This document shows positions 1-28,095 of a DNA stretch of 64,000 bases, piece by piece (the first letter of the stretch is position 1; every line of letters starts with the position of its first letter). A program made the translations under genes and the position numbers. This DNA is from Moniliella sp. 'wahieum'. Lineage: Eukaryota. The notes beneath the pieces were generated by a model, which saw nothing but the letters and a program-made list of their open reading frames with translations, was not told the origin of the DNA and made no database searches. The DNA lies in contig RSEE01000158.1 of the NCBI GenBank assembly GCA_003971905.1, forward strand, positions 1 to 64,000. The letters run 5' to 3'.

Positions 1-11
1 AACCCTAACCC
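1..11 (+). repeat. Telomeric repeat seed (CCCTAA)n at the window start
   Basis: AACCCTAACCC is the C-rich strand at the 5' end, as expected for a left telomere. It is absent from the homologous position of copies 2 and 3 (GGTGCGCCGCCGGTTC). Only ~2 units are visible. Confidence 0.6.
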
Positions 12-2642
12 GGGTTCAAGGAGGCGGCCGGACGCATGGGCCGCGGTACCTCGCGCGCCCCTCGGACCACGCCGTGTTCAACCTGCTGGCGCTGCCCAAG
101 TGCGGCCTGCAGGGCGACTCGTCGTCGACCGTGTGTGCGTCGCTGCGTGCCTACCCCGAGGTGCCCTGGCCGCAGGCGGCCAAGCGTCCGACGCGCGAGA
201 TGCGCCGGCGCGATGTGCTGGACAAGGCCCACGCCAAGTGACGCAGGGCATGCTCGGCCGCGCGGTCCGGACGCTGGAAGCGGACCAGGACACGGGTGTC
301 ACTGACCGAGGCGACGTACCAGTCGCTGCAGGACAAGCACCGACCGGCCCGCGCAACCCGATGGCCGGTGTTGTGGTCCGGCAGGTTGCGAGCGCCGCCG
401 CCGACGCTGACCGGCGACGCGATCGAGGACGACGAGGGCCACCTGCTGGAAGATCTCGAGGTTCAAGACAAGGATGTGGACCGTGCTGCTAGCTCTCCCG
501 CGACGTGGGAGGCGGCGTCAGTGGCTGGTCCCAGCCGCTGTGCGGCTCGCGCTCCAGCACGACGACTTCAAGGCGGCGGTCAAGTCGATGGCCACCGCCA
601 TGTAGCGGGCACCTGCCCCGGCGCCCAGCTGCTCTGCACCAGCAGGCTCACGGCTCTTGCCAAGCCGGACGGGGTGTGCGCCCCATTGCCTGTGGGGAGC
701 TCCTACCGGCTCCTGGCCAAGATCCTCCTGCTGCACATCGACGTCCGCTCGCCCTCTTGCGCACCCAGCTGGGTGTCAAGTCCAAGGGCGGCGTGGAGCC
801 GATTGTGCGGCTGCTGGACCGCGTCGTCACCGGAGGCGACCAAGGCAACGGCCCCGCGTGGGAGGACCGGTTCAAGTATGTGACGTCGCTCGACTTAAGA
901 ACGCGTTCAACAGCGTGGACCGACATGTGATGGCGCAGGCCGTCAACGACCACTGCCGCGAGCTGGTGCCCTTCTACCGCTGGGCATACGGACACGGACA
1001 GCACACGCAGCTGGTCGCGGGCGGTGCGGGGAACGTGCGCACGATTGTCAGCCAGCAAGGCGTCCGGCAAGGCGATCCCTTTGGCCCCTTTTTCTTTTCC
1101 GTCGCGATCCGGGACACGCTCGCCGCGGCGCAGCGCGCGCTCGGCGACGCAGGTGTGGTCGTGTCCTACCTGGACGACACCTACCTGCTGTCGCGCGAGC
1201 CAACGCACTGTCGCTCGTGTCGGGCGCCTGAAGCACGGAAAGACGGGGCTGGAGCTCAACGTGGCCAAGACCAGCGTCACCAGCGTGCAAGAGATGCAGG
1301 CCCAGGGTGCCAGGTCCTCGGCTCGTGCATTGGGCCCCGGGACGCCCGCCTGGCCTTTCTGCGGGACAAGATTGCGGACCAAGCCTCCCGCTACCCCGCC
1401 CTGCATGGCCTTGCACTGCAGGACCGGCTGCTGCTCTTGCGGTCGTGCCTGCAGCACAACCTCCGCCACCTGCTGCGCTGCATGCGGACTGACGATCTCG
1501 CGGAGGAGCTGGCGCCGCGAGATTGATGGGCAGCTGTGGCAAGAGGTCAAGGCCATCCGGGGCGCCGACCCGAACGACGTGGAGGGACAACGGTGGGACG
1601 AAGCTCTTCTTTCCCTGCCCGCCCGCAGTGGCGGGCTTGGCTTCTTCTCCCACCTCGACGTTGCCCCACACGCGCGGGGCGGCCTCATGCGAGGAGGCGG
1701 ATGTGTGGGTGGAAAAGGTGATTGCTGGCTGCCGACCGGAGAGAGAGAGAGAGAGAGACGCGCCAGCCGCCACGCGACAGTCGCAGCGGGAACGGACGAC
1801 CGCCATGTTTGCCGACCAACAGGCGAAGCTACTGACCGAGCTGCCGCCCGAGTTGGGCCACCGGCTGCTAGAGAACGCCGAAGCGCTCAACCGGACGTGG
1901 ATGTCGGTGGTGCCCTCGACTCCAGCTTTAAACGCTTCCTGACCACGAGGTCATGGCTGGACTACACCTCCGCACCCTCTGCCGGCACGCCGCCGTCTGC
2001 CGGAACTGCAACGGACCCTGCCCAGATGTGGGGCACCTGCAGTCCTGCAACCGGTGGCGCTCGATTGGCAACTACCGCCATGAGATGCTCCGACGCTGCA
2101 TCGTCAACCTGGCCCGGCACATTCCGGCCACCGAGGTGGAGACCGAGCCCTTCACCCAGCCGCAGCGCCCCGGGCGCTACGACCGCACCGCCAACCGCAC
2201 CGACATCAAGCTGACAGGAACCGGTGCCTCCAAGGGCACCTCGACATGCTACGACCTGACGTTTTGGTCTTTCGGGAACAAGACGCGCGACGCCGACATG
2301 CGCCGCGTCCGCCAGCAACTCGCCGCCACCACGCCGGCGCCCGAGCTGCGCAGGAAGGAGATGGATGTGTTTGTCGAGACCGCCGCCAAGGACAAGCACC
2401 GCAAGTACGACGCGATTACTACAGGTGCTTTTGTGCCCTTGGTCTTTACCGCAGGCGGCTACGCCCACGGCGAGGCCAAGGCTGCTTTGGCGCACTGGAA
2501 GGGGGAGGCGAACGCCGGTGCCTACCGCACGTTCACCGCCCTCTTTTCGTCCTGGCTCTTGCGTTGTGCGGTACAAGGCATGCGAGTCGCCCCTTCCCAC
2601 CGCGCCACCCCACGGATGGCGGGGAGGGGGCGATACTCGTAG
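12..2642 (+). CDS. RT-RLE polyprotein, 5'-truncated; frameshifts probably sequencing indels
   Basis: ORF pieces 657-1526 (RT core) and 1953-2642 (Zn knuckle plus PD-(D/E)xK-type endonuclease); stop TAG ends at 2642. Confidence 0.8.
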
Positions 2643-2710
2643 AGCCCCGCGCGGCGTAAGCCCAGATGGCGTACACCCCATCCTCGGTACTACTCCTGTC
2701 AGAGCGTTTT
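12..2710 (+). mobile_element. CRE-clade (Cnl1/MoTeR/SLACS-like) RLE non-LTR retrotransposon, copy 1, lacking the first ~1.3 kb
   Basis: Near-identical to 4273-6953. RT motifs QQGVRQGDPFGPFFFS and YLDD; C-terminal CRNC-x8-H-x3-C, RHE, RTDIKL, YDLTF, KHRKY, FVPLVFTAGG. Confidence 0.92.
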
Positions 2711-2774
2711 AGGCGCCAGAAAATGCACCCCCGGGATAACTGGCTTGTGGCAGCCAAGCGTTCATAGCGACGTT

Positions 2775-2810
<36 letters not shown>

Positions 2811-2864
2811 GCCGTAGCAAAATTCGGCAAGCGTTGGATTGTTCACCCACCAATAGGGAACGTG

Positions 2865-2902
<38 letters not shown>

Positions 2903-2958
2903 TCCTACCGTAACACGCGAGTCGACAGTAGTTCCGGCGAGTACGAGAGGAACACCGG
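2711..2958 (+). rRNA. 28S/LSU rRNA segment (PTC, H89-H93, sarcin-ricin loop H95), duplicate 1
   Basis: GGGATAACTGGCTTGTGGCAGCCAAGCGTTCATAGCGACG...GATGTCGGCTCTTCCTATCAT...GGGTTTAGACCGTCGTGAGACAGGTTAGTTTTA...AGTACGAGAGGAAC are universal eukaryotic LSU signatures. Confidence 0.95.
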
Positions 2959-5900
2959 CGCCGCTGTGAACCTGTGCTTGACGGAGCTACGGCGCGGGAC
3001 TACGAGACGACGCTACGGACTACGATGCGCGAAGAAGGAAACGTTTTGGTGCTCGCGTGCCGCACTGCGGGCTGTGCTCCCGCTACGGCCATGTGGACGC
3101 TGGTTGCCAGTCGGTGGTGACGACGGGGAAGCTCTGTGGCGTGTGCCACACCCCGGGCCACCGGCGGGACCAGTGCCAGGAGCTGGTTGACCAGTCGATC
3201 AGGCGCATGGCCGAGCAAGCCGGAGCGGAGCCGCACGATGTGGCCTTGGATGCGGCGGCCATTGTGGCCATGCGCCGAGCGACTGGGCATTGCCGCTGCG
3301 CGAGCGGCGTGCCCGTCGGCGCCCCCAGGACCGCCTCCTGGGCCAGGAACCAACAAGCGTGCCCGAAGCCCAGCCCCCTGACCAGCTCGGACGGGGAGGC
3401 AGACGACGACTGGGTGGACCAAGCCGCAGCCGCGCCGCCGCGCCGCTCGGAGCGCAGAGCCGCCGCCAACGCGGCGTTTGCGCGCCAGGCGACGCTCCTG
3501 GCCGCCGCCGCCGCTGTGCCCCTCCCCTCGTCGCCGCGGAGCTCGCCCTTGTCTTCGCCACGGCCGTCCGATGTGTCGACCAGCTCGGCCCCCCCCTCGC
3601 CCGCTCGCCCCGCCGCGGCGCTCCCGCCGGGTGTGGTGTCTGGTGAAGATCTTCTGCGCCGCCCGCCCCAGGTCCGCCCTGGGGCGGATTCCGGCGTGGG
3701 TGATGTCACCGGTGCCGCGCCCGCTGCGGCGCCCACGGGTGATGATAGCTCGGACGATGAGATTGCCCGCCTGCGACTTTTGTCCTCCCACCCCCTCCCC
3801 CCTCACCCCCACCCAAGACGTGCTCGCCACCCCCCCCCCACCTCCCGCCCGTTCATTGACTTTGACCCTCTCGACTTTGCCGCGGCGGCCGCGCGCTGTT
3901 CGCCGAGTCGCCCTCGCCTGCGCCTGACGCTGCTGCCGAGGAGCGTGGGGCCACCGGCGCTGCCCCCGCGGGCAGCGCCGACCCGCGTTTGACGCGCAGT
4001 TCCAGGAGCTGCTGCAGGAGCAGCAGTGCCCGCGCCCGCGGCGCGCCGCACCGTGGCGCCCGTGGCGCCCGCCCGAAGTGACGGCCGGCGACGCCCGCCG
4101 CGCGGCCCGTGCCCAGCTCTCGCCCTCGCCCGCGCCCCCGCCCGTCGACCTGCCCGCCGACCCGACGCTCGTGCCCGGGTGGCGCGACCAGCGCCCGCAC
4201 GCTCAAGAAGCGCTTTGCCTCGCTGGCAGAGTGTGCCGCGCCCTCCTGGCCCGGCAGCACCATGGTGCGCCGCCGGTTCAAGGAGGCGGCCGGACGCATG
4301 GGCCGCGCGTACCTCGCGCGCCCCTCGGACCACGCCGTGTTCAACCTGCTGGCGCTGCCCAAGTGCGGCCTGCAGGGCGACTCGTCGTCGACCGTGTGTG
4401 CGTCGCTGCGTGCCTACCCCGAGGTGCCCTGGCCGCAGGCGGCCAAGCGTCCGACGCGCGAGATGCGCCGGCGCGATGTGCTGGACAAGGCCCACGCCAA
4501 GTGACGCAGGGCATGCTCGGCCGCGCGGTCCGGACGCTGGAAGCGGACCAGGACACGGTGTCACTGACCGAGGCGACGTACCAGTCGCTGCAGGACAAGC
4601 ACCCGACGGCCCAGCGCAACCGATGGCCGGTGTTGTGGTCCGGCAGGTTGCCGAGCGCCCGCCGACGCTGACCGGCGACGCGATCGAGGACGACGAGGGC
4701 CACCTGCTGGAAGATCTCGAGGTTCAAGACAAGGATGTGGACCGTGCTGCTGCTAGCTTCTCCCGCGACGTGGGAGGCGGGTCAGTGGCTGGTCCCAGCC
4801 GCTGCTGCGGCTCGCGCTCCAGCACGACGACTTCAAGGCGGCGGTCAAGTCGATGGCCACCGCCATGTACGCGGGCACCTGCCCCGGCGCCCAGTGCTCT
4901 GCACCAGCAGGCTCACGGCTTGCCAAGCCGGACGGAGGTGTGCGCCCCATTGCCTGTGGGGAGCTCCTCTACCGGCTCCTGGCCAAGATCCTCCTGCTGC
5001 ACATCGACGTCCGCTCCCCTCTTGCGCACCCAGCTGGGTGTCAAGTCCAAGGGCGGCGTGGAGCCGATTGTGCGGCTGCTGGACCGCGTCGTCACCGGAG
5101 GCGACCAAGGCAACGGCCCCGCGTGGGAGGACCGGTTCAAGTATGTGACGTCGCTCGACTTTAAGAACGCGTTCAACAGCGGGACCGACATGTGATGGCG
5201 CAGGCCGTCAACGACCACTGCCGCGAGCTGGTGCCCTTCTACCGCTGGGCATACGGACAGCACACGCAGCTGGTCGCGGGCGGTGCGGGGAACGTGCGCA
5301 CGATTGTCAGCCAGCAAGGCGTCCGGCAAGGCGATCCCTTTGGCCCTTTTTCTTTTCCGTCGCGATCCGGGACACGCTCGCCGCGGCGCAGCGCGCGCTC
5401 GGCGACGCAGGTGTGGTCGTGTCCTAGGACGACACCTACCTGCTGTCGCGCGAGCCCAACGCACTGTCGTCGTGTCGGGCGCCCTGAAGCACGGAAAGAC
5501 GGGGCTGGAGCTCAACGTGGCCAAGACCAGCGTCACCAGCGTGCAAGAGATGCAGGCCCAGGGTGCCAAGGTCCTCGGCTCGTGCATTGGGCCCCGGGAC
5601 GCCCGCCTGGCCTTTCTGCGGGACAAGATTGCGGACCAAGCCTCCCGCTACCCCGCCCTGCATGGCCTTGCACTGCAGGACGGCTGCTGCTCTTGCGGTC
5701 GTGCCTGCAGCACAACCTCCGCCACCTGCTGCGCTGCATGCGGACTGACGATCTCGCGGAGGAGCGCGCGAGATTGATGGGCAGCTGTGGCAAGAGGTCA
5801 AGGCCATCCGGGGCGCCGACCCGAACGACGTGGAGGGACAACGGTGGGACGAAGCTCTTCTTTCCCTGCCCGCCCGCAGTGGCGGGCTTGGCTTCTTCTC

Positions 5901-6953
5901 CCACCTCGACGTTGCTCCCCACGCGCGGGCGGCCTCATGCGAGGAGGCGGATGTGGGGTGGAAAAGGTGATTGCTGGCTGCCGACCGGAGAGAGAGAGAG
6001 AGAGAGACGCGCCAGCCGCCACGCGACAGTCGCAGCGGGAACGGACGACCGCCATGTTTGCCGACCAACAGGCGAAGCTACTGACCGAGCTGCCGCCCGA
6101 GTTGGGCCACCGGCTGCTAGAGAACGCCGAAGCGCTCAACCGGACGTGGATGTCGGTGGTGCCTCGACTCCAGCTTTAACGCTTCCTGACCACGAGGTCA
6201 TGGCTGGACTGCACCTCCGCACCTCTGCCGGCACGCCGCCGTCTGCCGGAACTGCAACGGACCCTGCCCAGATGTGGGGCACCTGCAGTCCTGCAACGGT
6301 GGCGCTCGATTGGCAACTACCGCCATGAGATGCTCCGACGCTGCATCGTCAACCTGGCCCGGCACATTCCGGCCACCGAGGTGGAGACCGAGCCCTTCAC
6401 CCAGCCGCAGCGCCCCGGGCGCTACGACCGCACCGCCAACCGCACCGACATCAAGCTGACAGGAACCGGTGCCTCCAAGGGCACCTCGACATGCTACGAC
6501 CTGACGTTTTGGTCTTTCGGGAACAAGACGCGCGACGCCGACATGCGCCGCGTCCGCCAGCAACTCGCCGCCACACGCCGGCGCCCGAGCTGCGCAGGAA
6601 GGAGATGGATGTGTTTGTCGAGACCGCCGCCAAGGACAAGCACCGCAAGTACGACGCGATTACTACAGGTGCTTTTGTGCCCTTGGTCTTTACCGCAGGC
6701 GGCTACGCCCACGGCGAGGCCAAGGCTGCTTTGGCGCACTGGAAGGGGGAGGCGAACGCCGGTGCCTACCGCACGTTCACCGCCTCTTTTCGTCCTGGCT
6801 CTTGCGTTGTGCGGTACAAGGCATGCGAGTCGCCCTTCCCACCGCGCCACCCCCACGGATGGCGGGGAGGGGGCGATACTCGTAGAGCCCCGCGCGGCGT
6901 AAGCCCAGATGGCGTACACCCCATCCTCGGTACTACTCCTGTCAGAGCGTTTT
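2959..6953 (+). mobile_element. CRE-clade RLE non-LTR retrotransposon, copy 2, full length (~4.0 kb)
   Basis: Bounded on both sides by the same LSU segment. Contains two N-terminal CX2CX4HX4C knuckles, a Pro/Ala/Ser linker, RT and RLE. Confidence 0.93.
3025..6885 (+). CDS. Zn-knuckle/RT/RLE polyprotein (~1280 aa if indels are corrected; start uncertain)
   Basis: CGLCSRYGHVDAGC and CGVCHTPGHRRDQC; LAKPDGGVRPIACGELLYRLLAKILL; SLDFKNAFNS; GVRQGDP; GLELNVAKT; RLE motifs; TAG ends at 6885. Confidence 0.8.
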
Positions 6954-7017
6954 AGGCGCCAGAAAATGCACCCCCGGGATAACTGGCTTGTGGCAGCCAA
7001 GCGTTCATAGCGACGTT

Positions 7018-7052
<35 letters not shown>

Positions 7053-7095
7053 GCCGTAGCAAAATTCGGCAAGCGTTGGATTGTTCACCACCAAT

Positions 7096-7142
<47 letters not shown>

Positions 7143-7196
7143 TCCTACCGTAACACGCGAGTCGACAGTAGTTCCGGCGAGTACGAGGAACACCGG
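6954..7196 (+). rRNA. 28S/LSU rRNA segment (PTC to sarcin-ricin loop), duplicate 2
   Basis: Same as 2711-2958 apart from small indels, with identical junctions on both sides. Confidence 0.95.
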
Positions 7197-10100
7197 CGCC
7201 GCCTGTGAACCTGTGCTTGACGGAGCTACGGCGCGGGACTACGAGACGACGCTACGGACTACGATGCGCGAAGAAGGAAACGTTTTGGTGCCTCGCGTGC
7301 CGCACGGGCTGTGCTCCGCTACGGCCATGTGGACGCTGGTTGCCAGTCGGTGGTGACGACGGGGAAGCTCTGTGGCGTGTGCCACACCCGGGCCACCGGC
7401 GGGACCAGTGCCAGGAGCTGGTTGACCAGTCGATCAGGGATGGCCGAGCAAGCCGGAGCGGAGCCGCACGATGTGGCCTTGGATGCGGCGGCCATTGTGG
7501 CCCATGCGCCCGAGCGATGGGCATTGCCGCTGCGCGAGCGGCGTGCCCGTCGGCGCCCCCAGGACCGCCTCCTGGGCCAGGAACCAACAAGCGTGCCCGA
7601 AGCCCCAGCCCCCTGACCAGCTCGGACGGGGAGGCAGACGACGACTGGGTGGACCAAGCCGCAGCCGCGCCGCCGCGCCGCTCGGAGCGCAGAGCCGCCG
7701 CCAACGCGGCGTTTGCGCGCCAGGCGACGCTCCTGGCCGCCGCCGCTGTGCCCCTCCCCTCGTCGCCGCGGAGCTCGCCCTTGTCTTCGCCACGGCCGTC
7801 CGATGTGTCGACAGCTCGGCCCCCCCTCGCCCGCTCGCCCCGCCGCGGCGCTCCCGCCGGGTGTGGTGTCTGGTGAAGATCTTCTGCGCCGCCCGCCCCA
7901 GGTCCGCCCTGGGGCGGATTCCGGCGTGGGTGATGTCACCGGTGCCGCGCCCGCTGCGGCGCCCACGGGTGATGATAGCTCGGACGATGAGATTGCCCCG
8001 CCTGCGACTTTTGTCCTCCCCACCCCTCCCCCCCTCACCCCCACCCAAGACGTGCTCGCCACCCCCCCCCACCTCCCCGCCGTTCATTGACTTTGACCCT
8101 CTCGACTTTGCCGCGGCGGCCGCGCGCCTGTTCGCCGAGTCGCCTCGCCTGCGCCTGACGCTGCTGCCGAGGAGCGTGGGGCCACCGGCGCTGCCCCCGC
8201 GGGCAGCGCCGACCCGCGTTTGACGCGCAGTTCCAGGAGCTGCTGCAGGAGCAGCACGTGCCCGCGCCCGCGGCGCGCCGCACCCGTGGCGCCCGTGGCG
8301 CCCGCCCGCACGTGCCGGCCGGCGCGCCCCCGCCGCGCGGCCGTGCCCAGCTCTCGCCCTCGCCCGCGCCCCCGCCCGTCGACCTGCCCGCCGACCCGAC
8401 GCTCGTGCCCGGTGGCGCGACCAGCGCCCGCACGCTCAAGAAGCGCTTTGCCTCGCTGGCAGAGTGTGCCGCGCCCTCCTGGCCCGGCAGCACCATGGTG
8501 CGCCGCCGGTTCAAGGAGGCGGCCGGACGCATGGGCCGCGCGTACCTCGCGCGCCCCTCGGACCACGCCGTGTTCAACCTGCTGGCGCTGCCCAAGTGCG
8601 GCTGCAGGGCGACTCGTCGTCGACCGTGTGTGCGTCGCTGCGTGCCTACCCGAGGTGCCCTGGCCGCAGGCGGCCAAGCGTCCGACGCGCGAGATGCGCC
8701 GGCGCGATGTGCTGGACAAGGCCCACCGCCAAGTGACGCAGGGCATGCTCGGCCGCGCGGTCCGGACGCTGGAAGCGGACCAGGACACGGTGTCACTGAC
8801 CGAGGCGACGTACCAGTCGCTGCAGGACAAGCACCCGACCGGCCCGCGCAACCCGATGGCCGGTGTTGTGGTCCGGCAGGTTGCCGAGCGCCGCCGCGAC
8901 GCTGACCGGCGACGCGATCGAGGACGACGAGGGCCACCTGCTGGAAGATCTCGAGGTTCAAGACAAGGATGTGGACCGTGCTGCTGCTAGCTTCTCCGCG
9001 ACGTGGGAGGCGGCGTCAGTGGCTGGTCCCAGCCGCTGCTGCGGCTCGCGCTCCAGCACGACGACTTCAAGGCGGCGGTCAAGTCGATGGCCACCGCCAT
9101 GTACGCGGGCACCTGCCCCGGCGCCCAGCTGCTCTGCACCAGCAGGCTCACGGCTTGCCAAGCCGGACGGAGGTGTGCGCCCCATTGCCTGTGGGGAGCT
9201 CCTCTACCGGCTCCTGGCCAAGATCCTCCTGCTGCACATCGACGTCCGCTCGCCCCTCTTGCGCACCCAGCTGGGTGTCAAGTCCAAGGGCGGCGTGGAG
9301 CCGATTGTGCGGCTGCTGGACCGCGTCGTCACCGGAGGCGACCAAGGCAACGGCCCCGCGTGGGAGGACCGGTTCAAGTATGTGACGTCGCTCGACTTTA
9401 AGAACGCGTTCAACAGCGTGGACCGACATGTGATGGCGCAGGCCGTCAACGACCACTGCCGCGAGCTGGTGCCCTTCTACCGCTGGGCATACGGACAGCA
9501 CACGCAGCTGGTCGCGGGCGGTGCGGGGAACGTGCGCACGATTGTCAGCCAGCAAGGCGTCCGGCAAGGCGATCCCTTTGGCCCCTTTTTCTTTTCCGTC
9601 GCGATCCGGGACACGCTCGCCGCGGCGCAGCGCGCGCTCGGCGACGCAGGTGTGGTCGTGTCCTACCTGGACGACACCTACCTGCTGTCGGCGGAGCCCA
9701 ACGCACGTCGCTCGTGTCGGGGCCCTGAAGCACGGAAAGACGGGGCTGGAGCTCAACGTGGCCAAGACCAGCGTCACCAGCGTGCAAGAGATGCAGGCCC
9801 AGGGTGCCAAGGTCCTCGGCTCGTGCATTGGGCCCCGGGACGCCCGCCTGGCCTTTCTGCGGGACAAGATTGCGGACCAAGCCTCCCGCTACCCCGCCCT
9901 GCATGGCCTTGCACTGCAGGACCGGCTGTGCTCTTGCGGTCGTGCCTGCAGCACAACCTCCGCCACTGCGCGCTGCATGCGGACTGACGATCTGCGGAGG
10001 AGCTGCGCGAGATTGATGGGCAGCTGTGGCAAGAGGTCAAGGCCATCCGGGGCGCGACCCGAACGACGTGGAGGGACAACGGTGGGACGAAGCTCTTCTT

Positions 10101-11181
10101 CCCTGCCCGCCGCAGTGGCGGGCTTGGCTTTCTCCCACCTCGACGTGCTCCCCACGCGCGGGCGGCCTCATGCGAGGAGGCGGATGTGTGGGTGGAAAAG
10201 GTGATTGCTGGCTGCCGACCGGAGGAGAGAGAGAGAGAGAGACGCGCCAGCCGCACGCGACAGTCGCAGCGGGAACGGACGACCGCCATGTTTGCGACCA
10301 ACAGGCGAAGCTACTGACCGAGCTGCCGCCCGAGTTGGGCCACCGGCTGCTAGAGAACGCCGAAGCGCTCAACGGACGTGGATGTCGGTGGTGCCCTCGA
10401 CTCCAGCTTTAACGCTTCCTGACCACGAGGTCATGGCTGGACTACACCTCCGCACCCTCTGCCGGCACGCCGCCGTCTGCCGGAACTGCAACGGACCTGC
10501 CCAGATGTGGGGCACCTGCAGTCCTGCAACCGGTGGCGCTCGATTGGCAACTACCGCCATGAGATGCTCCGACGCTGCATCGTCAACCTGGCCCGGCACA
10601 TTCCGGCCACCGAGGTGGAGACCGAGCCCTTCACCCAGCCGCAGCGCCCCGGGCGCTACGACCGCACCGCCAACCGCACCGACATCAAGCTGACAGGAAC
10701 CGGTGCCTCCAAGGGCACCTCGACATGCTACGACCTGACGTTTTGGTCTTTCGGGAACAAGACGCGCGACGCCGACATGCGCCGCGTCCGCCAGCAACTC
10801 GCCGCCACCACGCCGGCGCCCGAGCTGCGCAGGAAGGAGAGGATGTGTTTGTCGAGACCGCCGCCAAGGACAAGCACCGCAAGTACGACGCGATTACTAC
10901 AGGTGCTTTTGTGCCCTTGGTCTTTACCGCAGGCGGCTACGCCCACGGCGAGGCCAAGGCTGCTTTGGCGCACTGGAAGGGGGAGGCGAACGCCGGTGCC
11001 TACCGCACGTTCACCGCCCTCTTTCGTCCTGGCTCTTGCGTTGTGCGGTACAAGGCATGCGAGTCGCCCCTTCCCACCGCGCCACCCCACGGATGGGGGG
11101 AGGGGGCGATACTCGTAGAGCCCGCGCGGCGTAAGCCAGATGGCGTACACCCCACTCGGACTACTCCTGTCAGAGCGTTTT
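7197..11181 (+). mobile_element. CRE-clade RLE non-LTR retrotransposon, copy 3, full length
   Basis: Near-identical to copy 2. ORF 8863-9987 holds an uninterrupted RT core (LAKPDGGVRPIACGE...LDFKNAFNSVDR...QGVRQGDPFGP...YLDD). Confidence 0.93.
7264..11118 (+). CDS. Zn-knuckle/RT/RLE polyprotein, copy 3 (apparent indel frameshifts)
   Basis: ORF pieces 7205-7876, 8863-9987, 10507-11118 and 10725-11183 carry the same motifs as copy 2. Confidence 0.8.
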
Positions 11182-11323
11182 AGGCGCCAGAAAATGCACC
11201 CCGGGATAACTGGCTTGTGGCAGCCAAGCGTTCATAGCGACGTTGCTTTTTGATCCTCGATGTCGGCTCTTCCTATCATGCCGTAGCAAAATTCGGCAAG
11301 CGTTGGATTGTTCACCCACCAAT

Positions 11324-11370
<47 letters not shown>

Positions 11371-11740
11371 TCCTACCGTAACACGCGAGTCGACAGTAGT
11401 TCCGGCGAGTACGAGAGGAACACCGGGGCCGGGCCTCCAGTGAGCACCTGTCCGACCGGGCAGAGGTGCGCAGCCGCGCCCGCCGAGTAAACACCTGAAC
11501 GCTCTAAGGTGGAACTCGTGCTAGTACGCTCGCATGTGGCTGGACTGGGTACCAATAGGCGCAAGCCGTACACCACGGGGGGGTCTCTGGGGGGGCGACG
11601 CCCCACCACACGCCCCACAATATACACATGAAGCACACTGCAAATCCCCCGCATACGACGGGGCATGGTCCGAGCGCCGTACGCCGTAGAGTGGGCTTGT
11701 TCCCACGATCGGCTGAAGCCCATCTCGGCACCTCTGATTC
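11182..11740 (+). rRNA. 3' portion of the 28S/LSU rRNA gene (PTC, SRL at 11408-11421, domain VI to the 3' terminus)
   Basis: Beyond the SRL it continues with CTGAACGC-TCTAAG, GCATACGAC, GTAGAGTGGGCTTGTTCCCACGATC and terminal CTGATT, colinear with the recalled fungal 25S 3' end. Stems are preserved by compensatory changes. Confidence 0.92.
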
Positions 11741-12156
11741 CCCCCCCCCTCGGGAGGGGGTTCCTGACCAAGTCCCAACCCTACCCCCGAAAAAATATGG
11801 AAAAATAGCGCGCTGCGGCGCAAGAAAGAACGAAAAGAGGGAAAGAAAAGAGGGAAGACTGCGTGAGCGGCGCCGGACGCTCTATCAGGTTTGAGCCATA
11901 CCCTTTACTTGCCCCGTTTTCCCCCCCGTTTTACCCGCTGCGAGCACCCCCAAAACCCTACTGACCACCGCTCGCTCCACTGCGGCGAGTATCCCCTGGG
12001 GGTGTCGCTAGGGGGCTCCCTAGGGTTCTCCCTAGGGTTTCCCTTGTGGATTCTCCCTCCTCCTCCTTGTACTCTCCTACTGGGCTAGCCCCAGTAGGGT
12101 TGCCCCTTGTCAATATACGCCCCCCCCCACCATACCCCCCTCCAAACACCCTGTGT
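11741..12156. other. rDNA 3'ETS / intergenic spacer IGS1
   Basis: Lies between the LSU 3' end and 5S. Contains C/G homopolymer tracts, a C-run/G-run hairpin right after the LSU end, and several AACCCTA/TAGGGTT motifs. Confidence 0.8.
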
Positions 12157-12273
12157 ATCCGCGGCCATAGAACTGTGAAAGCACCGCATCCCGTCCGATC
12201 TGCGAAGTAACCACAGTATCGCCCAGTCAGTACTACGGTGGGGGACCACGTGGGAATCCTCGGTGCCGCGGTT
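12157..12273 (+). rRNA. 5S rRNA gene, same strand as the LSU
   Basis: ATCCGCGGCCATAGAACTGTGAAAGCACCGCATCCCGTCCGATCTGCGAAGT...AGTACTACGGTGGGGGACCACGTGGGAATCCTCGGTGCCGCGGTT; 117 nt with pairing ends; basidiomycete-type 5S. Confidence 0.97.
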
Positions 12274-12274
12274 C

Positions 12275-12279
12275 TTTTT
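12275..12279 (+). terminator. Pol III terminator (T5) of the 5S gene
   Basis: TTTTT immediately after the 5S 3' end. Confidence 0.85.
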
Positions 12280-13169
12280 GCCAACTGACCCTCTGTAAGT
12301 AACCCCCCTCCCGCTCTCCTTTGCACACCCACCCTCCATCGGCAGGGCTCCCCCCGTACTAATACACCCCGCCCCCATCGGCCACCGTTGGCGCTACACC
12401 CCATTCTACCCCCATCTTCGACCCCCCGCCCATGCCCACAACTCTTCCCCCCGCGCCCCACGCCGCCCACACCTCCGTCTCACCCCCCTCTCACTTCGTT
12501 CTAATACCACTTGGCCGTACTCCAACCATGAGGAGCTATAGCACTTCCCCGCATGCCCCCTATAGAGCACGTATGTAGTCGCTGCCCTGCCCACCGCCCC
12601 ACCTCCGGCCGTAACCTATAGAGCCCGTACATATACAGTTTGGCGTACGGGTGTAGCATCGTGCTTCCCTCAGCACGTTACCCTATAGCGTGTACACCCT
12701 CGAAGCGCGGCTTGGAATTATAATTAACCCTAGTTCAGTCGCTGCGGATTCGCAACCCTAGTGCCCCGTTGCCATTGAACTGTGCTGGTTTTTCGGGCCT
12801 GCCCCCCATCCTCTCACCCACCACCACCACTACACGTATGCCAAGGCATCGCCCTGACCACCACCTCCAGCATGCATGTTACCTCTGTCGGCTGACCTCC
12901 GCGACGTGACCAATGCCGGGCCATGCCGGGCATCCTCCCAACGGTGCTCATTTCTCTTGGCCACTCGCCCCTTCCACAACACAGTCTTCCCCTTCCAATT
13001 GCCATTTGTGTGCCGGCGAAGCGCATAAGCCGAGGAGCGCAACAACATACCGAACGTCAGTTACTCATCGGCTGAACGCATGCCCTGCTTGGAGTCACTA
13101 GTAAGTCCCACTATTGCCTCGTTGCTCATCGCTGACTGTCCAAGTGCAGATATGAGTGCCTTACGGGAT

Positions 13170-20730: not shown

Positions 20731-23700
20731 CCCGCTTCAGCAGCTGTGCGCCAGGCCTGCATGGTAGCGAATGTGTCTGGCACAACCGGCGGGCACCTTG
20801 CCGCCGTCGGCAACGCTCCCTGCTGCAGTGCAAGTCTACAGGGCTGCTACGGCGGCAGCGGACAGCGAGCAGCCCCGCAAGCAGCAGCAATCGACTGCCT
20901 CTCCGCGAGACGCGCAGAAAGGGCTGTTCCGTCGTGGGGTTAATGTTAAACGTGCGTTTGCCGCCGCGCTTGGCGCGCAGAAGTCCTCCACATTGGCCGC
21001 GGCCACACCGCCCAAGCCCCCTCCCCGATCTGGCCGGCTGCGTTTAAGATCGCTTTGCCTCTCCACGACCAACCCGCTGGGACTCTATGTAGGGCTCATG
21101 TCCTTGCTTCCTTCTCGCGCTGCGCACCAAGCCGGATGCATGCTCACGGGGGCCCACGCCCCTCGGCTCCGCTTTTTGCTGTCCATCCTGTCGATGCAGT
21201 GCCTGAACTGGCATCGAGAGCGCGGTTGCGTTACCGAGCTCGGCATGATGCGCAGCGGTGGAATGCAAATCAACCTGGAGGCGATCCACCCGTGGGATGC
21301 GTATCTTGATGGTGGTGATTCCTGTACGTGTCCATCTCCTTCTGCTGAAACCTAAGTTGCTGACGTTTCACCTTAGCTGGACGCAGCACTAGAAGCAATA
21401 TTGCTCACAAGCAACCATTAACTTGTCACGTCAACGTCCCCCAGCCAGTTGGGCAAGGCGCCAATACCGGGAGTATTGGCAAAGGCAGGGCACGCCTTCC
21501 GCCCCTGCGGATGCGCCGGCAGCAAAGACCTCTACGGCTGGCGAAGAGCAGAAGCTGCTCGCTGCTGCTGCGTTGGGGAATGGGCGCGTAGAACAGGTCC
21601 GGGGGGGGGGCGTGGCTGCTCTTCACTACCCTCGTTGGACCCCTGAAGAGGATGGAGACGGGGTGGGTAGTGTCAATGAGCCTCACTCTCGATTGGATAC
21701 TGATCGTGGATGTAACTGCCTCGCGGGACGCGTTTATTGATCAGGTGGACTGGGGCCAACCACTTAACCGAGCTATGCCAAAGTGAATCCTCCACCTCGT
21801 CCTTTTGTTCGCCTCTCGCAGCAGGGCTGTGCCCCATTGCGCTCCCTTTTTTCCCCTCCCGAAGTCGTGCCCCCACGCCTCCGCTGCCCGCACAGACCGG
21901 CCAGGTCCTCACCCAGTATGGCTGGGTGTTCTTTAATAGGAACCCGCCTTGATCTCCACCCAAAACTGATCGAAAATGGGCCGAACTCTCGGCTGGTCCA
22001 GCAGAAGGCCCAAGCTCTTCTCAGTCACATCGCGGCGGAGACCGCCGCACCGACCTTCACGATACGCAATCCCTTCCACACGGCGAACATTCCTCTCACC
22101 TCAAGCTTGCTGCTGCCGACAGTCAGCGCCTTTCATACCAAAGCCAAAAACGATGATCCGCGCGGCCCTACCCACTACGGGGTCATGATTCTCTCTATGG
22201 TTTAACATGTACGACGACGACCCCTACCCACACTTCCTCTGGTATGATGTATGACGACGCGCTTGTGCAGGCCCGAACGTACAAGCACAGGTGTGCTGAC
22301 GGAGATGGATCATGAAGAGTGTCCGAGAACTAACGCAAGGACATGGATCAAACCGCTGCCCGCTTTTCATTTATGTGGAAGATCTTAGCGGTTCTTTTGG
22401 AAGCTGCCAAGTGATATGCTTCCAGGCTCCGCCTCTTCTTGGGGCCACTATCCTACTGCTCATATTAGAGCACTCTCTCCCCCCTCTCCCAGATGGGAAT
22501 CAAGTCCAAGGGAGAGTGGGGCACATTGTGCGTAGGCTAGACATTCTGTCACAGAAAGCGATCGAGGCAAAGGGCCCAAGCAAGAAAAGGTTCCAAAACG
22601 CAGCGTACAAGAGGCGCAAACGCAACGTGCCAAGATCATGGGCTTCTGCATTGGGACTAGTATCACCTGACTGACGTTCTTGCGGGCCAAGAATGTGGAT
22701 CAAAACCGCTCGCTACCCTGCCTGAAATCCCTCCCGTTGCCCCACCGGTTGTTCATTTTGCGGTTCGTGCTTGCAGCAGCCCCTCCGCCATCTGTTTCAC
22801 TCGAGGCGGAGAAACGAATCTGGCAAGGGCCAAACTCCCGTGGGTAGGTGAGCAGCAATAGCACGAGGCAAGTCATCCGGGGCGACGATCGGGCAATGTT
22901 GTCGGTCAATGGTAGGACCAAGTTATGCCCGTCACTTTGGGCAGATCACTCCTGCTCTCTCCTCTTGACTTTGCTCCACCAGCCAACGCATTGACTTGGG
23001 CAGCGAGGCGAACGTACGGGTGGACCAGGTGATCGGCAGCCAACCAGAGGGGCCCGAGCCTGCTCCTCGTCCTGGCACAAGAAAAAAGACCACGGTTTTG
23101 CTCGCCCGTCAGCATACGAAGCTGCTGCTCCTGTGACTACATCGTTGGGCCTGGCTGATTGAGAAAGCAGAAGTGCTCGATCGGAGCTGGAGGTCGGTGG
23201 TGCCCTCCAAACCAGCGTTCGCTTTTCCTGGCCACGGGATCATGGCTGGGTACGGGACATTCCGGCCACTATGGTAAAGCCCGACGACCGATCCAACAAT
23301 CCGGAGCGAATTGGACGCTCCCACGCCACTGTCACCGTCGCTGAGGTCACGATTGCAAACGCAGGTACTCCAAAGAGCCCATCCATATCGAACAGCCTAA
23401 CCCTTTGGTCCTTCGGAGACAAGACGCGCGACGCCTATCCTACGTCGTTTCTGCCATCGGCTCGCCTCCGTCCCTCCGGCACACGCGCTGTGCAAGGAGA
23501 TGAACGCCTTGTTCGACACGGAGGCCAAAGCAAGGCACCAACGTACAATCCTTGTGCAACGGGTGACTAGCTCTGTTCCCTTGGTCTTCGCTGCGGGTGA
23601 CTACGCCTATTATTAGTCCAGGCTGCTTTGGCGTACTCCAAGTGGAGAGCAAGCTTCGGTTGCCATTGCGCATTCATCTTGCCGCTCGTGCGAGCTAAGG

Positions 23701-24260
23701 TATAAGGATCACCCCATCCAAATGCACCACTCCTTTAACACATGGATCAAGGGGCTTTTACTTGATTTCCCCGCCGACCACATTGCCAAACCACAGCCTA
23801 GGAGGCGGACTATGCATTCGCGGTGCTTTGGCTGCCCAAAAATGCAAGACGAGCAAGATGTGTATCCGCAGAACGTTCTGGACTGCGTGCGCTACTTTAG
23901 CTACGAAAGTGTCCAGTGCACTCTTGAATGGAGATGAAGCGGGCAATACAAAACTTGTTCCTTCTCCACGTTTCTACCGCCACCTTCTCCTCCGCCTTGC
24001 CCGCCGTCTGGAGGTCGTGGCGAATCATGTGGTCCCCTTCCGTGATGCGCGTGAACTAGGCCGGTGGGAACTAGCGTAACACCAACAGCTCAGGGCGCAC
24101 GCGCTACGCCAGGCAGTCGGTGCCGGCTGTGCTCAGCCCAGTCAGGCAGCCGAAGCGGACCACCCCAGCAGTTCCGATTCGGATCCATTCGAGTGGTGGA
24201 GTGCGCTGTGCTCACTCCGCTGGGCAGCGCAATGGTGCGGCGTCGGTTCAAACGAGGCGG
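20731..24260 (+). repeat. Segmental duplication copy A (paralog ~25008-29260; older partial copies ~16740-17230 and ~19100-19760)
   Basis: Colinear matches from GCTTCAGCAGCTGTGCGCCAGG through GGAATGCAAATCAACCTGGAGGCG and TGGACCCCT.AA.AGGATGGAGA to TCGTGGCGAATCATGTGG. Confidence 0.85.
22260..23735 (+). mobile_element. Heavily decayed RT-RLE relic of the CRE-like family
   Basis: CAAGTCCAAGGG (KSKG), TGGTCCTTCGGAGACAAGACGCGCGACGCC (WSFGDKTRDA), GTTCCCTTGGTCTTC (VPLVF); many stops and deletions. Confidence 0.8.
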
Positions 24261-24935
24261 CCGGTCGGTTGGGAAGAGCGTATTTAGATCATCCCGACGA
24301 TGACGCCGTGTTCAACCTGCTTGCCCTGCCGAATGCGGGCTTGCGGGGGGGCTCTTCGCCGCCGCGTTTGTGCCACCCTCAGGGCCTATCCGGAGGTGGC
24401 GTGGCCGCCAGCTATGGAGAAGGGCTCTGCAGAGCGCCAGCGTTCCGATGATTTGACCCGTGCACACCGCCAGGTCAAAGAGGGCATGCTGGGACGTGCG
24501 GCGCGTACGTTGCGTCCCCAGGATGCGGCGGTGGGGTTTGGGCCGGAAACGGTTGAGGCCCTGCGCGCGAAGCACTCTGCATGCCCGAAGAAACCCGCTG
24601 GCTGGTTGGTGGTTCGGCAAATGTCGGAGCGGGTCCCGCCTGGTTTAACGGGCGACACCGCAGCGGCGGACGCCGGCGAGCCCCCAATGGTTTTGGAGTT
24701 GGATGATAAGGGCATCTATCGCGCGGCAAGCAGCTTCTCCCGGGACGTGGGGGGAGGCGTGGGCGGATGGTCGGTGCCTCTTCTCCAGTTGGCTCTAAAG
24801 CACGATGACTTTAGAGCGGCTCTCAAATCCATGGCGTGTGCATGTTTCATGGGACGTGCCCGGGTGCTCAGCTGTTGTGCACCAGTAGGCTGACGGCACT
24901 TGCGAAGCCTGACGGTGGAGTGAGACCGATTGCCG
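24190..24935 (+). mobile_element. CRE-like relic, pre-RT to RT N-terminus
   Basis: MVRRRFK, RAYLDHPDDDAVFNLLALP, GMLGRAARTL, FSRDVGGGVGGWSVPLLQLALKHDDF, CTSRLTALAKPDGGVRPIA; protein-level similarity to the young copies with diverged DNA. Confidence 0.88.
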
Positions 24936-26544
24936 GTGCCTTCCGCACCTCACTCTGTCGCGCCGACCTCCATCTCTACGAAAGAAGATGGTGGTCGGCG
25001 CCACACGCCTGCTTCAGCAGCTGTGCGCCAGGTCTGCGTTCCAGCGAGCCGTGCCTGGCCACACGGCGAGTGCCTTGCCACCGTCAAGAGTGCACCCTGC
25101 TGCTGTGCAAGTCCGGAGGGCTACTGCTCATGACAGGGAAGGGGAGCTTGGTTGTGATATTTCGTGGCCGCAGCGATGAACGGTAGCAGCCCAAGTAGCA
25201 GCAATCGACTGCCTCTCCGCGAGACTCCCCGAAAGCGCTGCTCCCGTCCCGAGGTTACGTGCGTTTGCCGCCTCGCTTGGCGAGCACACGCAGTCGCAGT
25301 TCCTCCACATTGGCCGCCGCCACAGGGCTCAGTCTTAGCCCGCGCCGATTCTGGTCTGGCCTCGTCTGGGACAGCGTTTGCCTCTCTACCACCAACACGC
25401 TGGGGCTCTGCTACGCCTCGTATCCTTGCTGTCTCTAAGCTGCGCACCAACCCGGATGCGTGCTCACGAGAGGGCACGCTCCTCGGCTCCGCTTTTTGCT
25501 GTCCGTCCTTGTTCATGCAGCACCCGAACTAGCATCGAGAGGGTGGCTGGGTTCCCGAGGTTGACACGATGCGCAGTGGCGGAATGCAAATCAACCTGGA
25601 GGCGGCCCACCCATGGGGTGCCGCAACTTTGATGGTGGTGATGCCTGTACGCGTTTATGTACCCTTCTTCTAGAACCCCAGTTGCTGACATTTCACATTA
25701 GCTCGCCGCAACTCCAGAGGCACTGTGCGCCCACTCAAGCAGTCTTTATCTCGTCGCATCCACGTCCCCCCAACACATTGTGCAAGGCGCCAATTCAGGC
25801 AATATTGGCAAGGGCAGGGCACGCTTCCCGCTCCCTGCGGATACGCCGGGAGGGAGGCCTCTACGGCTGGCGAAGAGCAGATGCTACTCCATACTGCTCT
25901 GCTGTGCGGGACGGGTGCCCATAACAGGGCCCAGAACAGGTCCGGGGGGGCGCGGCTCTTCTTCATCCCCTCGATGGACCCCTAAAAAGGATGGAGATGG
26001 TGTTGGTGAGCCTCACTCTCGATTGGATATAACTGCCTCGCCCACCTAACCCGAGCTATGCCGAAGTGAATCCTCCACCTCGCCCTTTTTGTTCGCCGCT
26101 CGTAGCAGGGCTGTGGCCCCATTGCGCCTCCCTTTGTTCTCCCTTCCCCAATTCGCAGCCCGCACGTCTCCGCTGCCCCACAGATCGGCCAGATCCTCTC
26201 CCACCAGAGTGGCTGGGTGTTCCTCAACATGGAAACCGCATTGATCCCCACCCAAGACTTATCGAATGGGCCCGGCCTGGTTCCAGCAGCAGGCCCAAAC
26301 TCTTCTCACACGCACTCCCGGCGCAGACCGCAAAGACCTCCATGATGCACAATCTCTTCCACACGGCGAACGCGTTCCTCTCCTCAAGCTTGCTGCCGCC
26401 GACCGTCAGCGCCTTTCATACTAAAGACGAAACAATCATCCACACGGCCCTATTCAATACCGGGGTCATGATTATTTCTACTGTTTTACATGTACGACGA
26501 CGATCCCCACCCACACTTCCTCTGGTATGATATACTGACCGACG

Positions 26545-28095
26545 CGCTTGTGCAGGCCGGAACGTACAGGCACGGGTATGCAGACGGAGATGGATGGTCA
26601 AGAGTGTCCGAGCACTACGGCACGGACATGGGTCAAACCAGTGCCCGCTCTTCATTTACGTGGGAAATGTTAGTGGTCCGGCATCGCTTTACACTTGGCC
26701 ATCCCTCAACATGATGACGCTGTGGAAGCTGCCCATATGCTTCCAAGGTCCGTCTCGTCTTGGAGCCAATATCCTACCACTGCATATCAGAGTAACCCCC
26801 CTCTTCTCCCAGATGGGACTCAAGTCCAAGGGAGAGTGGGACAGATGGTGCGTTGGCTGGGCACTTCGTTACAGAAGGCGATCGAGGCGAAGGGCCCGAG
26901 TGAACAAAAAATCGGTTCCAATGTGTAACGTGCCTCGACTTAAACACAGCGTGCAAGATGTGCAAGCGCAACGTGCCAAGATCGTGGGCTTCTGCATTGG
27001 GGATAGTATCACCTGACTGATGATCTTGCGAGTCAAGAATGTGGATCAAACCACTCGCTACCCTGCTTAAAACCCCTCCCGTTGCCCCATCGGTTGTTCA
27101 TTTTCGGTTCGTCTTTGCAGCAACTCCTCCGCCATCTGTTTCGCTCGAGGCGGAGAAACGAATCTGGCACTGGCCAAACTCCCCCTGGGTAGGTGAGCAG
27201 GAATGACACGAGGCAAGTCATCCCGGGCGATGATCGCGGCAATGTGGTCGATCAATGGTAGGACCAAGTTGTCATCCCGATGCTCGTCGGTTTGGGCAGA
27301 TCAGTCTTGCTCTCTCCTCTTGACTTTGCTCCACAGGCCAGGCATCGACTTGCACAGAGAGGTGAACCTATTGGCGGACGAGCTCTTCGGAGTCATGTAG
27401 GGGCATAAGAGCCTGCTCCTCGCACACGGCGCAAGGAAAAGACTGCGGTTTTTCTCGCCCGCCAGCATACGAAGCTATTGCCTCCCGTGATTACACCGCT
27501 GTGGCTCCTGACTGATCGAGAAAGCAGAAGTGCTCGATCAGAGCTGGAGGTCGGGGTGCCCTCTAATCCAGCACTCACTTTTCCTGGCCACGGGGCCATG
27601 ACTGAGTCGCAGGACATTCCGACCACTATGGTAGAGCACTTATCCAACAATCCGGAGCGAATTGGGCGCATCCACGCCACTGTCACCCGGGCTGAGATCA
27701 CGATGGTTAAGGCAGGCGCTCCAAAGAGCCCATCCATATTGAACGGCCTAACGCTTTGGTCATTCGGGGACAAGACGCGCGACGCCTATCCTACGTCGTG
27801 TCTGTCATCCACACGTTGCCGCCCACACTCGTTGTGCAAGAAGGAGATGATCACCTTGCTCGACGCGGAGGCCAAAGCAACGGACCAACGTACAATTTTA
27901 GTGTAACGGGTGTCTAACTCTGTTCCCTTGGTCTTCCTTCAGGGTGACTACGCCTGTGGTTAGTCCAGGGCTGATTTGGCACACTGCCAGTGGAGAGCAA
28001 GCGTTGGTTGTCATTCCTCATTTGCCTTGCCGCTCGGTCTCTTGCGCTGCGCGAGCAAAGGTATAAGGATCACTCCATCCAAACGCACCACCCTG
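26545..28095 (+). mobile_element. Decayed RT-RLE relic (paralog of 22260-23735)
   Basis: QMGLKSKG; LTFPGHGAM; GLTLWSFGDKTRDA; CKKEM; VPLVF. Confidence 0.8.

What the first reader, a model, noticed from the sequence alone, without database searches (positions are those of the whole stretch)
2711..2958. ~248-bp apparent target-site duplication spanning exactly the PTC to the sarcin-ricin loop
Seen: the layout is element-X-element-X-element-X-rest of LSU, with X at 2711-2958, 6954-7196 and 11182-11426. X starts just upstream of GGGATAAC and ends right after the SRL stem (AGTACGAGAGGAACACCGG), where copies 2 and 3 begin with the same 5' junction. Known: TPRT with a downstream second-strand cut gives X-element-X; trypanosomatid CRE TSDs are tens of bp and rotifer R9 makes ~126 bp. 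Inference: either an unusually long fixed TSD, or X travels in the element RNA (Pol I co-transcript) and is used for homology-directed junction formation. Either way an inserted unit keeps an intact PTC and SRL upstream of the element.
Basis: partly seen in the sequence, partly recalled or inferred. Interest (0 to 1): 0.85.

Follow-up and report, generated by a model that had tools for sequence, protein, structure and literature searches.

The report
Tandem rDNA retrotransposons separated by LSU piece
At the edge of a fungus's ribosomal RNA genes, at least three head-to-tail copies of a site-specific jumping gene are each followed by the same ~248-base piece of the large rRNA gene, which looks like a very long target duplication but cannot be proven one from this window.

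Summary
Window 1-11426 holds three head-to-tail units (period ~4.24 kb). Each is a ~3.99-kb non-LTR retrotransposon followed by the LSU segment X (2711-2958, 6954-7196, 11182-11426). The last X runs without a break into the LSU 3' end, and 5S follows.

The three X copies show no substitutions, only 6 short indels that look like long-read noise. Both X|element junctions are the same, and all three element|X junctions are the same.

The element has N-terminal zinc knuckles, a reverse transcriptase and a C-terminal CCHC plus restriction-like endonuclease. Its nearest relatives are basidiomycete proteins (38-48% identity), and solved R2 proteins are the nearest structures.

My best reading (about 0.45) is a long target duplication made at least once, then built into an array by a second insertion or unequal exchange. 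The Drosophila R1 array, with its 33-nt rDNA spacers, is the precedent.

Three things keep this open:
- The junction left of the array lies outside the window.
- No genome or reads could be obtained.
- 79 metagenome loci of relatives show no LSU or 5S sequence.

A "fixed 248-bp TSD" is therefore unproven, and a one-off tandem duplication remains a live rival. I rate it a new variant of a known kind, of moderate interest.

The parts
1..2710 (+). Element copy 1, cut at its 5' side by the window start (begins at about element position 1305)
   Evidence: Alignment of the three units; repeat family D8 pairs 46-295 with 4309-4558; weak RVT_1 match in 606-1523 (E 1.7e-5, below the curated cut-off)
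1932..2642 (+). C-terminal open frame of copy 1: CCHC motif plus restriction-like endonuclease motifs (RTDIKL, YDLTF, KDKHRKY, PLVFTAGG), with stop TAG at 2640-2642
   Evidence: Translation; BLASTP to the C-terminus of homologue P0004, E 2e-16, 28% identity over 217 aa, aligning these motifs
2643..2710 (+). 3' untranslated tail of the element (68 nt, no poly(A)), ending ...GCGTTTT
   Evidence: Sequence; same in all three copies apart from a few short indels in copy 3
2711..2958 (+). X copy 1: LSU rRNA segment from just 5' of the peptidyl-transferase core to 9 nt past the sarcin-ricin loop motif
   Evidence: Rfam LSU match 2643-3037; alignment
2959..6953 (+). Element copy 2, complete between two X copies (~3995 nt)
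3066..3176 (+). Two CX2CX4HX4C zinc knuckles at the element's N-terminus, read by eye
   Evidence: Translation of 2982-3989; Pfam gave no hit for this piece at E<=0.01
6954..7196 (+). X copy 2
   Evidence: Rfam LSU 6978-7135, 199.8 bits; alignment
7197..11181 (+). Element copy 3, complete
9157..9705 (+). Reverse-transcriptase domain (copy 3)
   Evidence: Pfam RVT_1, E 2e-11, 44.4 bits, residues 120-302 of the frame 8800-9984
11182..11426 (+). X copy 3, continuous with the rest of the LSU
11427..11742 (+). Remaining 3' end of the LSU rRNA gene (B)
   Evidence: Rfam alignment reaches model position 3401 of 3401
12157..12274 (+). 5S rRNA gene, same strand
   Evidence: Rfam RF00001, 103 bits

Best explanation
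This is a tandem array of at least 3 copies of a site-specific non-LTR retrotransposon with a restriction-like endonuclease, sitting in the LSU rRNA gene of the last (or an orphan) rDNA unit of a basidiomycete. X is most likely the stretch of target between two points. The first is where the element's 3' end was primed, a bottom-strand nick just 5' of AGGCGCCAGAAAA. The second is where its 5' end was joined, just 3' of the sarcin-ricin loop. On this reading X is a target duplication of about 248 bp, created at least once during target-primed reverse transcription. The array was then built by a second insertion into a duplicated target, by unequal exchange between X copies, or by both, as proposed for the Drosophila R1 array. 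What is shown: the structure, the identical junctions and the type of element. What is inferred: that X also stands left of the first element, that the two ends of X mark nick or joining sites, and how the array grew.
For: Three element|X junctions and two X|element junctions are each identical, and X3 is continuous with the LSU 3' end. The element looks complete at both junctions. The zinc-knuckle frame opens 24 nt after X, and homologues carry their first finger within about 10-25 residues of the N-terminus. The stop codon lies 68 nt before X. The element type is secure: RVT_1, a CCHC plus RLE C-terminus aligned to homologue P0004 at E 2e-16, and a family profile that hits solved R2 proteins best (E 2e-26, against about 1e-6 for LINE-1 ORF2p). 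Each part of the ORF is open in at least one copy, and the copies differ mainly by 1-nt indels (115 indel against 24 substitution columns), so the element is young. Precedents exist: CRE, R4, R8 and R9 elements make target duplications (PMC3636483 passages), and R1 tandem units are separated by an identical 33-nt rDNA duplication explained by double insertion plus unequal exchange (PMC5932611 passages).
Against: The decisive junction left of the array lies outside the window. No genome is held. There is only one locus, and all units are near-identical, so the number of independent events may be one. None of the 79 metagenome loci of relatives has LSU (X+B) or 5S sequence (blastn), and 0 Rfam families were found in the 19 closest loci. 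Of 21 loci checked, 4 had direct repeats flanking the RT match, but these were 73-87% identical pieces or a 35-nt match, not long near-identical flanks. The true length of the element's 5' UTR is unknown, so 'complete at the junction' is weaker than it looks. The assembly is noisy at about 1% indels.
Confidence: 0.45

Rival explanations
1. A one-off DNA-level tandem duplication. The element inserted once at the 5' edge of X with little or no duplication (LSU-element-X-rest). A 4.24-kb segment of element plus X was then duplicated and expanded by slippage or unequal exchange. On this reading X is not a target duplication, and no X stands left of the first element.
For: All units are near-identical and X has 0 substitutions among copies. 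rDNA and its edges are known to expand repeats by unequal exchange (PMC5932611). The leftmost junction is unseen.
Against: The duplication breakpoint would have to fall in the short stretch (at most ~107 nt) between the element's start as seen here and its first zinc knuckle. No significant similarity exists between the element's first 150 nt and the LSU downstream of X that could have guided an exchange (score 15; 485 of 500 shuffles scored as high or higher).
Confidence: 0.27
2. X is carried in the element's RNA. Pol I co-transcripts of an array, cut at each element's 5' end, would give unit-length element+X RNAs. Template jumping or homology-guided joining during reverse transcription would then lay down element-X concatemers, or fix the 5' junction at the end of X.
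For: R2 RNAs that keep upstream 28S sequence give uniform 5' junctions by annealing to the target (PMC3774820, abstract). The two X|element junctions here are uniform. R2-type elements have no promoter of their own and are co-transcribed (PMC3636483 passages).
Against: No self-cleaving ribozyme family was found at E<=5 in 6500-7700 or at gathering score in the whole window. My loose HDV-like descriptor found 2 candidate sites in 110 nt at the junction, against a background of 4.4 per 100 nt inside the element, so there is no enrichment. A single-nick model with X only in the RNA cannot create the first X-element-X.
Confidence: 0.15
3. An assembly artefact. A noisy long-read assembler mis-joined or over-expanded rDNA reads, and the real locus has one element or none.
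For: About 1% single-base indels between copies (84 indel columns between units 2 and 3) show an unpolished consensus. The window starts inside the array.
Against: The array runs without a break into the LSU 3' end, 5S and 52 kb of ordinary genes. Noise of this kind does not create 4-kb periodicity with precise junctions.
Confidence: 0.08

Closest known systems
Drosophila melanogaster R1 tandem array (Kidd & Glover 1980; Roiha et al. 1981, as described in PMC5932611, passages read)
   Same: Head-to-tail copies of an rDNA-specific non-LTR element separated by an identical piece of the rRNA gene target. It lies at or outside the edge of the rDNA. It is explained by double insertion into a duplicated target followed by unequal exchange.
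   Different: The R1 spacer is 33 nt, against about 248 nt here. R1 is an APE-type element of insects (recalled), whereas this is an RLE-type element of a fungus. The insertion site in the LSU is different.
R9 of bdelloid rotifers (Gladyshev & Arkhipova 2009; title seen only in reference lists; the paper was not held)
   Same: An RLE-type, LSU-specific element reported to make an exceptionally long target duplication, which implies two strand breaks far apart.
   Different: R9 belongs to the animal R2 clade. Here the nearest relatives are fungal proteins, the N-terminus has CCHC knuckles, the site differs, and single insertions have not been seen.
Fungal CRE-like RLE elements (Cnl1, MoTeR, FoTeR; PMC12857005 passages)
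   Same: Same overall protein plan: N-terminal fingers, RT, C-terminal CCHC plus RLE. They are fungal, and they form head-to-tail arrays at a repeated target.
   Different: Those elements sit in telomere repeats. No telomere repeat is present in this window, and the target here is the LSU rRNA gene. Clade membership was not tested, because no reference sequences were available.
Utopia elements in Phytophthora U2 snRNA gene arrays (PMC4640811 passages)
   Same: An RLE element whose copies are each followed by the same 3' fragment of the target gene, within arrays.
   Different: There the target itself is a short tandem gene, and the pattern is read as deletion of the target's 5' part on insertion, not as duplication.

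Membership tests
RLE-type (R2-group in the broad sense) site-specific non-LTR retrotransposon | Reverse-transcriptase domain of non-LTR type | tested here: met
   Pfam RVT_1 E 2e-11. Nearest solved proteins are R2 proteins (E 8e-5 for the single sequence; E 2e-26 for the family profile).
RLE-type (R2-group in the broad sense) site-specific non-LTR retrotransposon | C-terminal CCHC motif followed by a PD-(D/E)xK-like restriction-like endonuclease, with no APE domain | tested here: met
   The motifs align with those of homologue P0004 (E 2e-16). The consensus of 33 family members shows the same C..C..H..C, RxDI and DxT..K..Y pattern. There was no direct Pfam or PDB hit for this domain alone.
RLE-type (R2-group in the broad sense) site-specific non-LTR retrotransposon | Insertion at one precise site of a multicopy gene, in one orientation | tested here: inconclusive
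   Three identical 3' junctions and two identical 5' junctions, but all are in one array that may stem from one event. No other rDNA unit is visible.
R9-like long target-site duplication | The same target segment flanks single insertions on both sides, with constant length among independent insertions | not testable with these tools
   No genome is held, no runs were listed, and the left end of the array lies outside the window.
R2 clade proper (animal R2/R8/R9) | Phylogenetic placement within R2; N-terminal CCHH fingers plus a Myb motif | not tested
   No tree was built, for lack of named reference sequences. The N-terminus shows two CCHC knuckles by eye. The top database hits are basidiomycete proteins.
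CRE clade (CRE/SLACS/CZAR/Cnl1/MoTeR) | Phylogenetic placement with these elements; target is a spliced-leader gene or telomere repeat | tested here: inconclusive
   Placement was not tested. The target feature is not met: no telomere repeats, and the flanks are LSU rRNA.
TE tandem array by double insertion plus unequal exchange (R1-array type) | Complete head-to-tail elements separated by an identical copy of the target sequence | tested here: met

The most novel reading that the evidence does not exclude
This fungal element routinely cuts the two strands of the LSU rRNA gene about 248 bp apart, at two universally conserved sites that bracket the peptidyl-transferase core and the sarcin-ricin loop. 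Every insertion then carries a fixed ~248-bp duplication. That would be about twice the length recalled for R9, and it would come from what may be the first rDNA-specific LINE described in fungi.
Probability: 0.25. Interest if true: 0.7.

Novelty: new variant of a known kind. Interest (0 to 1): 0.45.

Why it matters
How RLE-type LINEs cut the second strand and join their 5' end is still debated (PMC3636483 introduction passage). An element that reproducibly leaves two breaks about 250 bp apart would give that step a second, independent natural example beside R9. It would also add a fungal rDNA-specific lineage with a new target site. The table passages I saw in the rDNA/TE review PMC10946416 list only an LTR element (Hideaway) and Ty1 for fungal rDNA. 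My searches turned up no fungal LSU-specific non-LTR element. If instead this is a one-off array, it is a neat fungal parallel to the Drosophila R1 satellite, showing how site-specific elements seed tandem repeats at rDNA edges.

Tried and rejected
- Whole genome: none is held for this window.
- Sequencing runs for 7100-12400: none was listed, and no RNA holder was listed.
- Relatives' loci: 79 metagenome loci have no match to X+B or 5S (blastn, E<=1e-4). There were 0 Rfam families in 19 of the 79. No long near-identical flanking repeats were found in 21 of the 79. In that check L011 has a 1356-nt repeat at 87%, L032 and L042 have ~125-nt repeats at 73-74%, L042 has a 35-nt match at 94%, and L056 has an 80-nt repeat at 80%.
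- Ribozyme at the element's 5' end: Rfam at E<=5 found none, and my HDV-like descriptor was not enriched at the junction.
- LSU-derived 5' end: MAFFT hinted at similarity between the element's 5' end and the LSU downstream of X. I rejected this, since the local score was below that of most shuffles.
- Telomere repeats: none found.
- Decayed related copies at about 22.5-27.8 kb: no X-like piece lies beside them.
- GGCGCC at both junction types: noted, but it was found post hoc and is not significant alone.
- Earlier scan notes searched by sequence: nothing.
- Papers: the R9 paper and the Shivram et al. paper were not held, so the 126-bp figure is recalled.

Full report
WHAT IS THERE

The first 11.4 kb of the window is a head-to-tail array with a period of about 4.24 kb. 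Each unit is a ~3.99-kb element followed by a 243-248-nt piece of the large-subunit rRNA gene, called X here. X stands at 2711-2958, 6954-7196 and 11182-11426.

Rfam's eukaryotic LSU model matches X1 and X3 at gathering score. X2 was missed in that run but scores 199.8 bits.

X3 continues into the rest of the LSU up to the model's last position at about 11742. A 5S gene follows on the same strand at 12157-12274.

No SSU, 5.8S or 5' LSU is present anywhere in the 64 kb. Beyond 12.4 kb lie ordinary fungal genes: a Zn2Cys6 factor, ALG10, RPS24 and an amine oxidase, which are 4 of the 12 ORFs scanned. The array therefore sits in the last unit of an rDNA array or in an orphan partial unit. The first element is cut by the window start, so three copies is a minimum.

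X begins about 22 nt before the GGGATAAC core of the peptidyl-transferase region.

HOW GOOD THE COPIES ARE

Within X the three copies show 0 substitutions and 6 short indel events, all in short homopolymer or dinucleotide runs. Over the shared part of the three units there are 115 indel columns against 24 substitution columns. Units 2 and 3 differ by 37 substitutions and 84 indel columns over 4155 matches.

This is the signature of an unpolished long-read consensus. Frameshifts in the element and small differences between copies therefore cannot be read as biology.

THE JUNCTIONS

- All three element|X junctions read ...CAGAGCGTTTT|AGGCGCCAGAAAA.
- Both X|element junctions read GAACACCGG|CGCCGC(C)TGTGAACC.
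- The uninterrupted gene reads GAACACCGG|GGCCGGGCC.

Secure LSU identity starts at AGGCGCCAGAAAA. Infernal's alignment of the ~25 nt before it skips 180 model positions and is not convincing. The 3' junction is therefore known only to within a few nt.

WHAT THE ELEMENT IS

- Of 54 stop-to-stop frames scanned, two hit Pfam RVT_1. The better is 8800-9984 (E 2e-11).
- The frame 1932-2642 of copy 1 encodes a CCHC motif and PD-(D/E)xK-like motifs. It aligns with the C-terminus of homologue P0004 at E 2e-16.
- The frame 2982-3989 of copy 2 starts 24 nt after X and carries two CX2CX4HX4C knuckles. The only ATG before them (3025-3027) is out of frame in this noisy copy.
- The stop codon (2640-2642) lies 68 nt before X, and there is no poly(A) tail.
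- The best database relatives are basidiomycete proteins from Tilletia, Filobasidium and Wallemia, at 38-48% identity. They come from 72 hits among 8000 scored candidates.
- A profile of 33 family members hits solved R2 proteins at E 2e-26, against about 1e-6 for LINE-1 ORF2p.

This is an RLE-type (R2-group in the broad sense) non-LTR retrotransposon. Earlier unchecked notes call the genome a basidiomycete and mention a Cnl1/MoTeR-like element elsewhere in it. I did not test clade membership.

HOW THE LAYOUT COULD ARISE

Any model must put X on both sides of at least the last two elements. It must also make both element ends coincide with the X boundaries.

Simple single-nick models in which X is only read-through RNA do not produce the first X-element-X. 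A donor inserted at the 5' edge of X has X downstream only, and a donor inserted at the 3' edge has X upstream only.

The economical reading is target-primed reverse transcription from a bottom-strand nick at the 5' edge of X, with the 5' end joined at a top-strand break about 248 bp downstream. That is a long target duplication.

Passages of PMC3636483 state that CRE, R4, R8 and R9 elements make duplications, and that the outcome depends on where the second nick falls. The R9 paper's title reports an exceptionally long duplication. The paper itself was not held, and the 126-bp figure is recalled.

Once X-element-X exists, there are two ways to get element-X-element-X. A second insertion can enter a duplicated target, or unequal exchange can occur between X copies.

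This is how the Drosophila R1 satellite is explained. Its units are separated by an identical 33-nt rDNA duplication. Other R1 tandems have longer or shorter rDNA pieces, and one scaffold ends in five tandem R1 copies next to an rDNA unit (PMC5932611 passages).

That precedent cuts both ways. It makes the array a known kind of structure. It also shows that independent tandems can carry rDNA pieces of different lengths, so one array cannot establish a fixed duplication length.

WHAT SPEAKS AGAINST THE LONG-DUPLICATION READING, OR LEAVES IT OPEN

- The junction left of the first element is not in the window.
- No genome is held.
- Relatives give no support. None of 79 metagenome loci (the best 80 kept, of 288 confirmed among 599 pattern matches) contains LSU (X+B) or 5S sequence.
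- The 19 closest of those loci have no Rfam family at all.
- Among the 21 loci I checked, 4 had direct repeats flanking the RT match. None was a long, near-identical flank.
- Many of these contigs are short and may end at the element, so this is weak evidence.
- A one-off DNA duplication of element plus X after a plain insertion would look the same from inside the window. Its only cost is that the breakpoint must fall in the ~107 nt or less before the first knuckle. That cost shrinks if the true 5' UTR is longer than what is seen here.
- An unchecked note on another piece of this genome reads repeated broken RT units beside rRNA genes as multiplied as DNA (e1-7648353).

THE RNA-BORNE VARIANT

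Its general basis is the R2 ribozyme work: upstream 28S sequence kept on the RNA gives uniform 5' junctions (PMC3774820 abstract).

I found no ribozyme family at E<=5 around the junction. My loose HDV-like descriptor was no more frequent there than inside the element (2 sites in 110 nt against 4.4 per 100 nt). The apparent similarity between the element's start and the LSU after X is chance.

FUNCTIONAL REMARK

A transcript ending after an upstream X would have the peptidyl-transferase core and the sarcin-ricin loop. It would lack the last ~315 nt of the LSU. Nothing here suggests that such an RNA is useful.

VERDICT

The long-duplication reading is the best single explanation, at about 0.45, but it is unproven and not shown to be fixed. 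The structure is a new variant of known things: a parallel to the R1-type tandem array, and possibly an R9-type long duplication, in a fungal RLE lineage at a new LSU site.

Noticed in passing
window 22488-27786 (+): Decayed, rearranged relic or relics of a related RT element. blastn gives 65-89% identity to pieces of the array element, and tblastn to homologues hits 22605-22818 and 24164-24988. No LSU piece lies beside it.
   Followed up: partly
window 2712-2717, 2957-2962, 11183-11188, 11425-11430: The hexamer GGCGCC stands at both junction types (element|X and X|element). The uninterrupted X|B site reads GGGGCC. GGSGCC occurs only at these two places in 11101-11760. I noticed this post hoc, and it is not significant on its own.
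   Followed up: partly
window 3066-3176: The element's N-terminus has two retroviral-type CX2CX4HX4C knuckles, whereas the printed homologues P0001, P0003 and P0004 begin with C..C..H..H-like fingers. This could be a swapped DNA-binding module that goes with the new target.
   Followed up: no
window 11427-11742: Outside the universal cores, the LSU 3' domain differs at many positions from the Rfam eukaryotic consensus, and it lacks part of the last variable region in the alignment.
   Followed up: no
window 12008-12058: Four copies of a 12-mer (CTAGGGTTCTCC) lie in the spacer between the LSU and 5S.
   Followed up: no
L032 5236-5334 / 7803-7922 and L042 8657-8757 / 11353-11474: Two of the closer metagenome relatives carry a ~125-nt direct repeat (73-74% identity) on either side of the RT region, about 2.6 kb apart. 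This is probably an internal repeat of the element.
   Followed up: no
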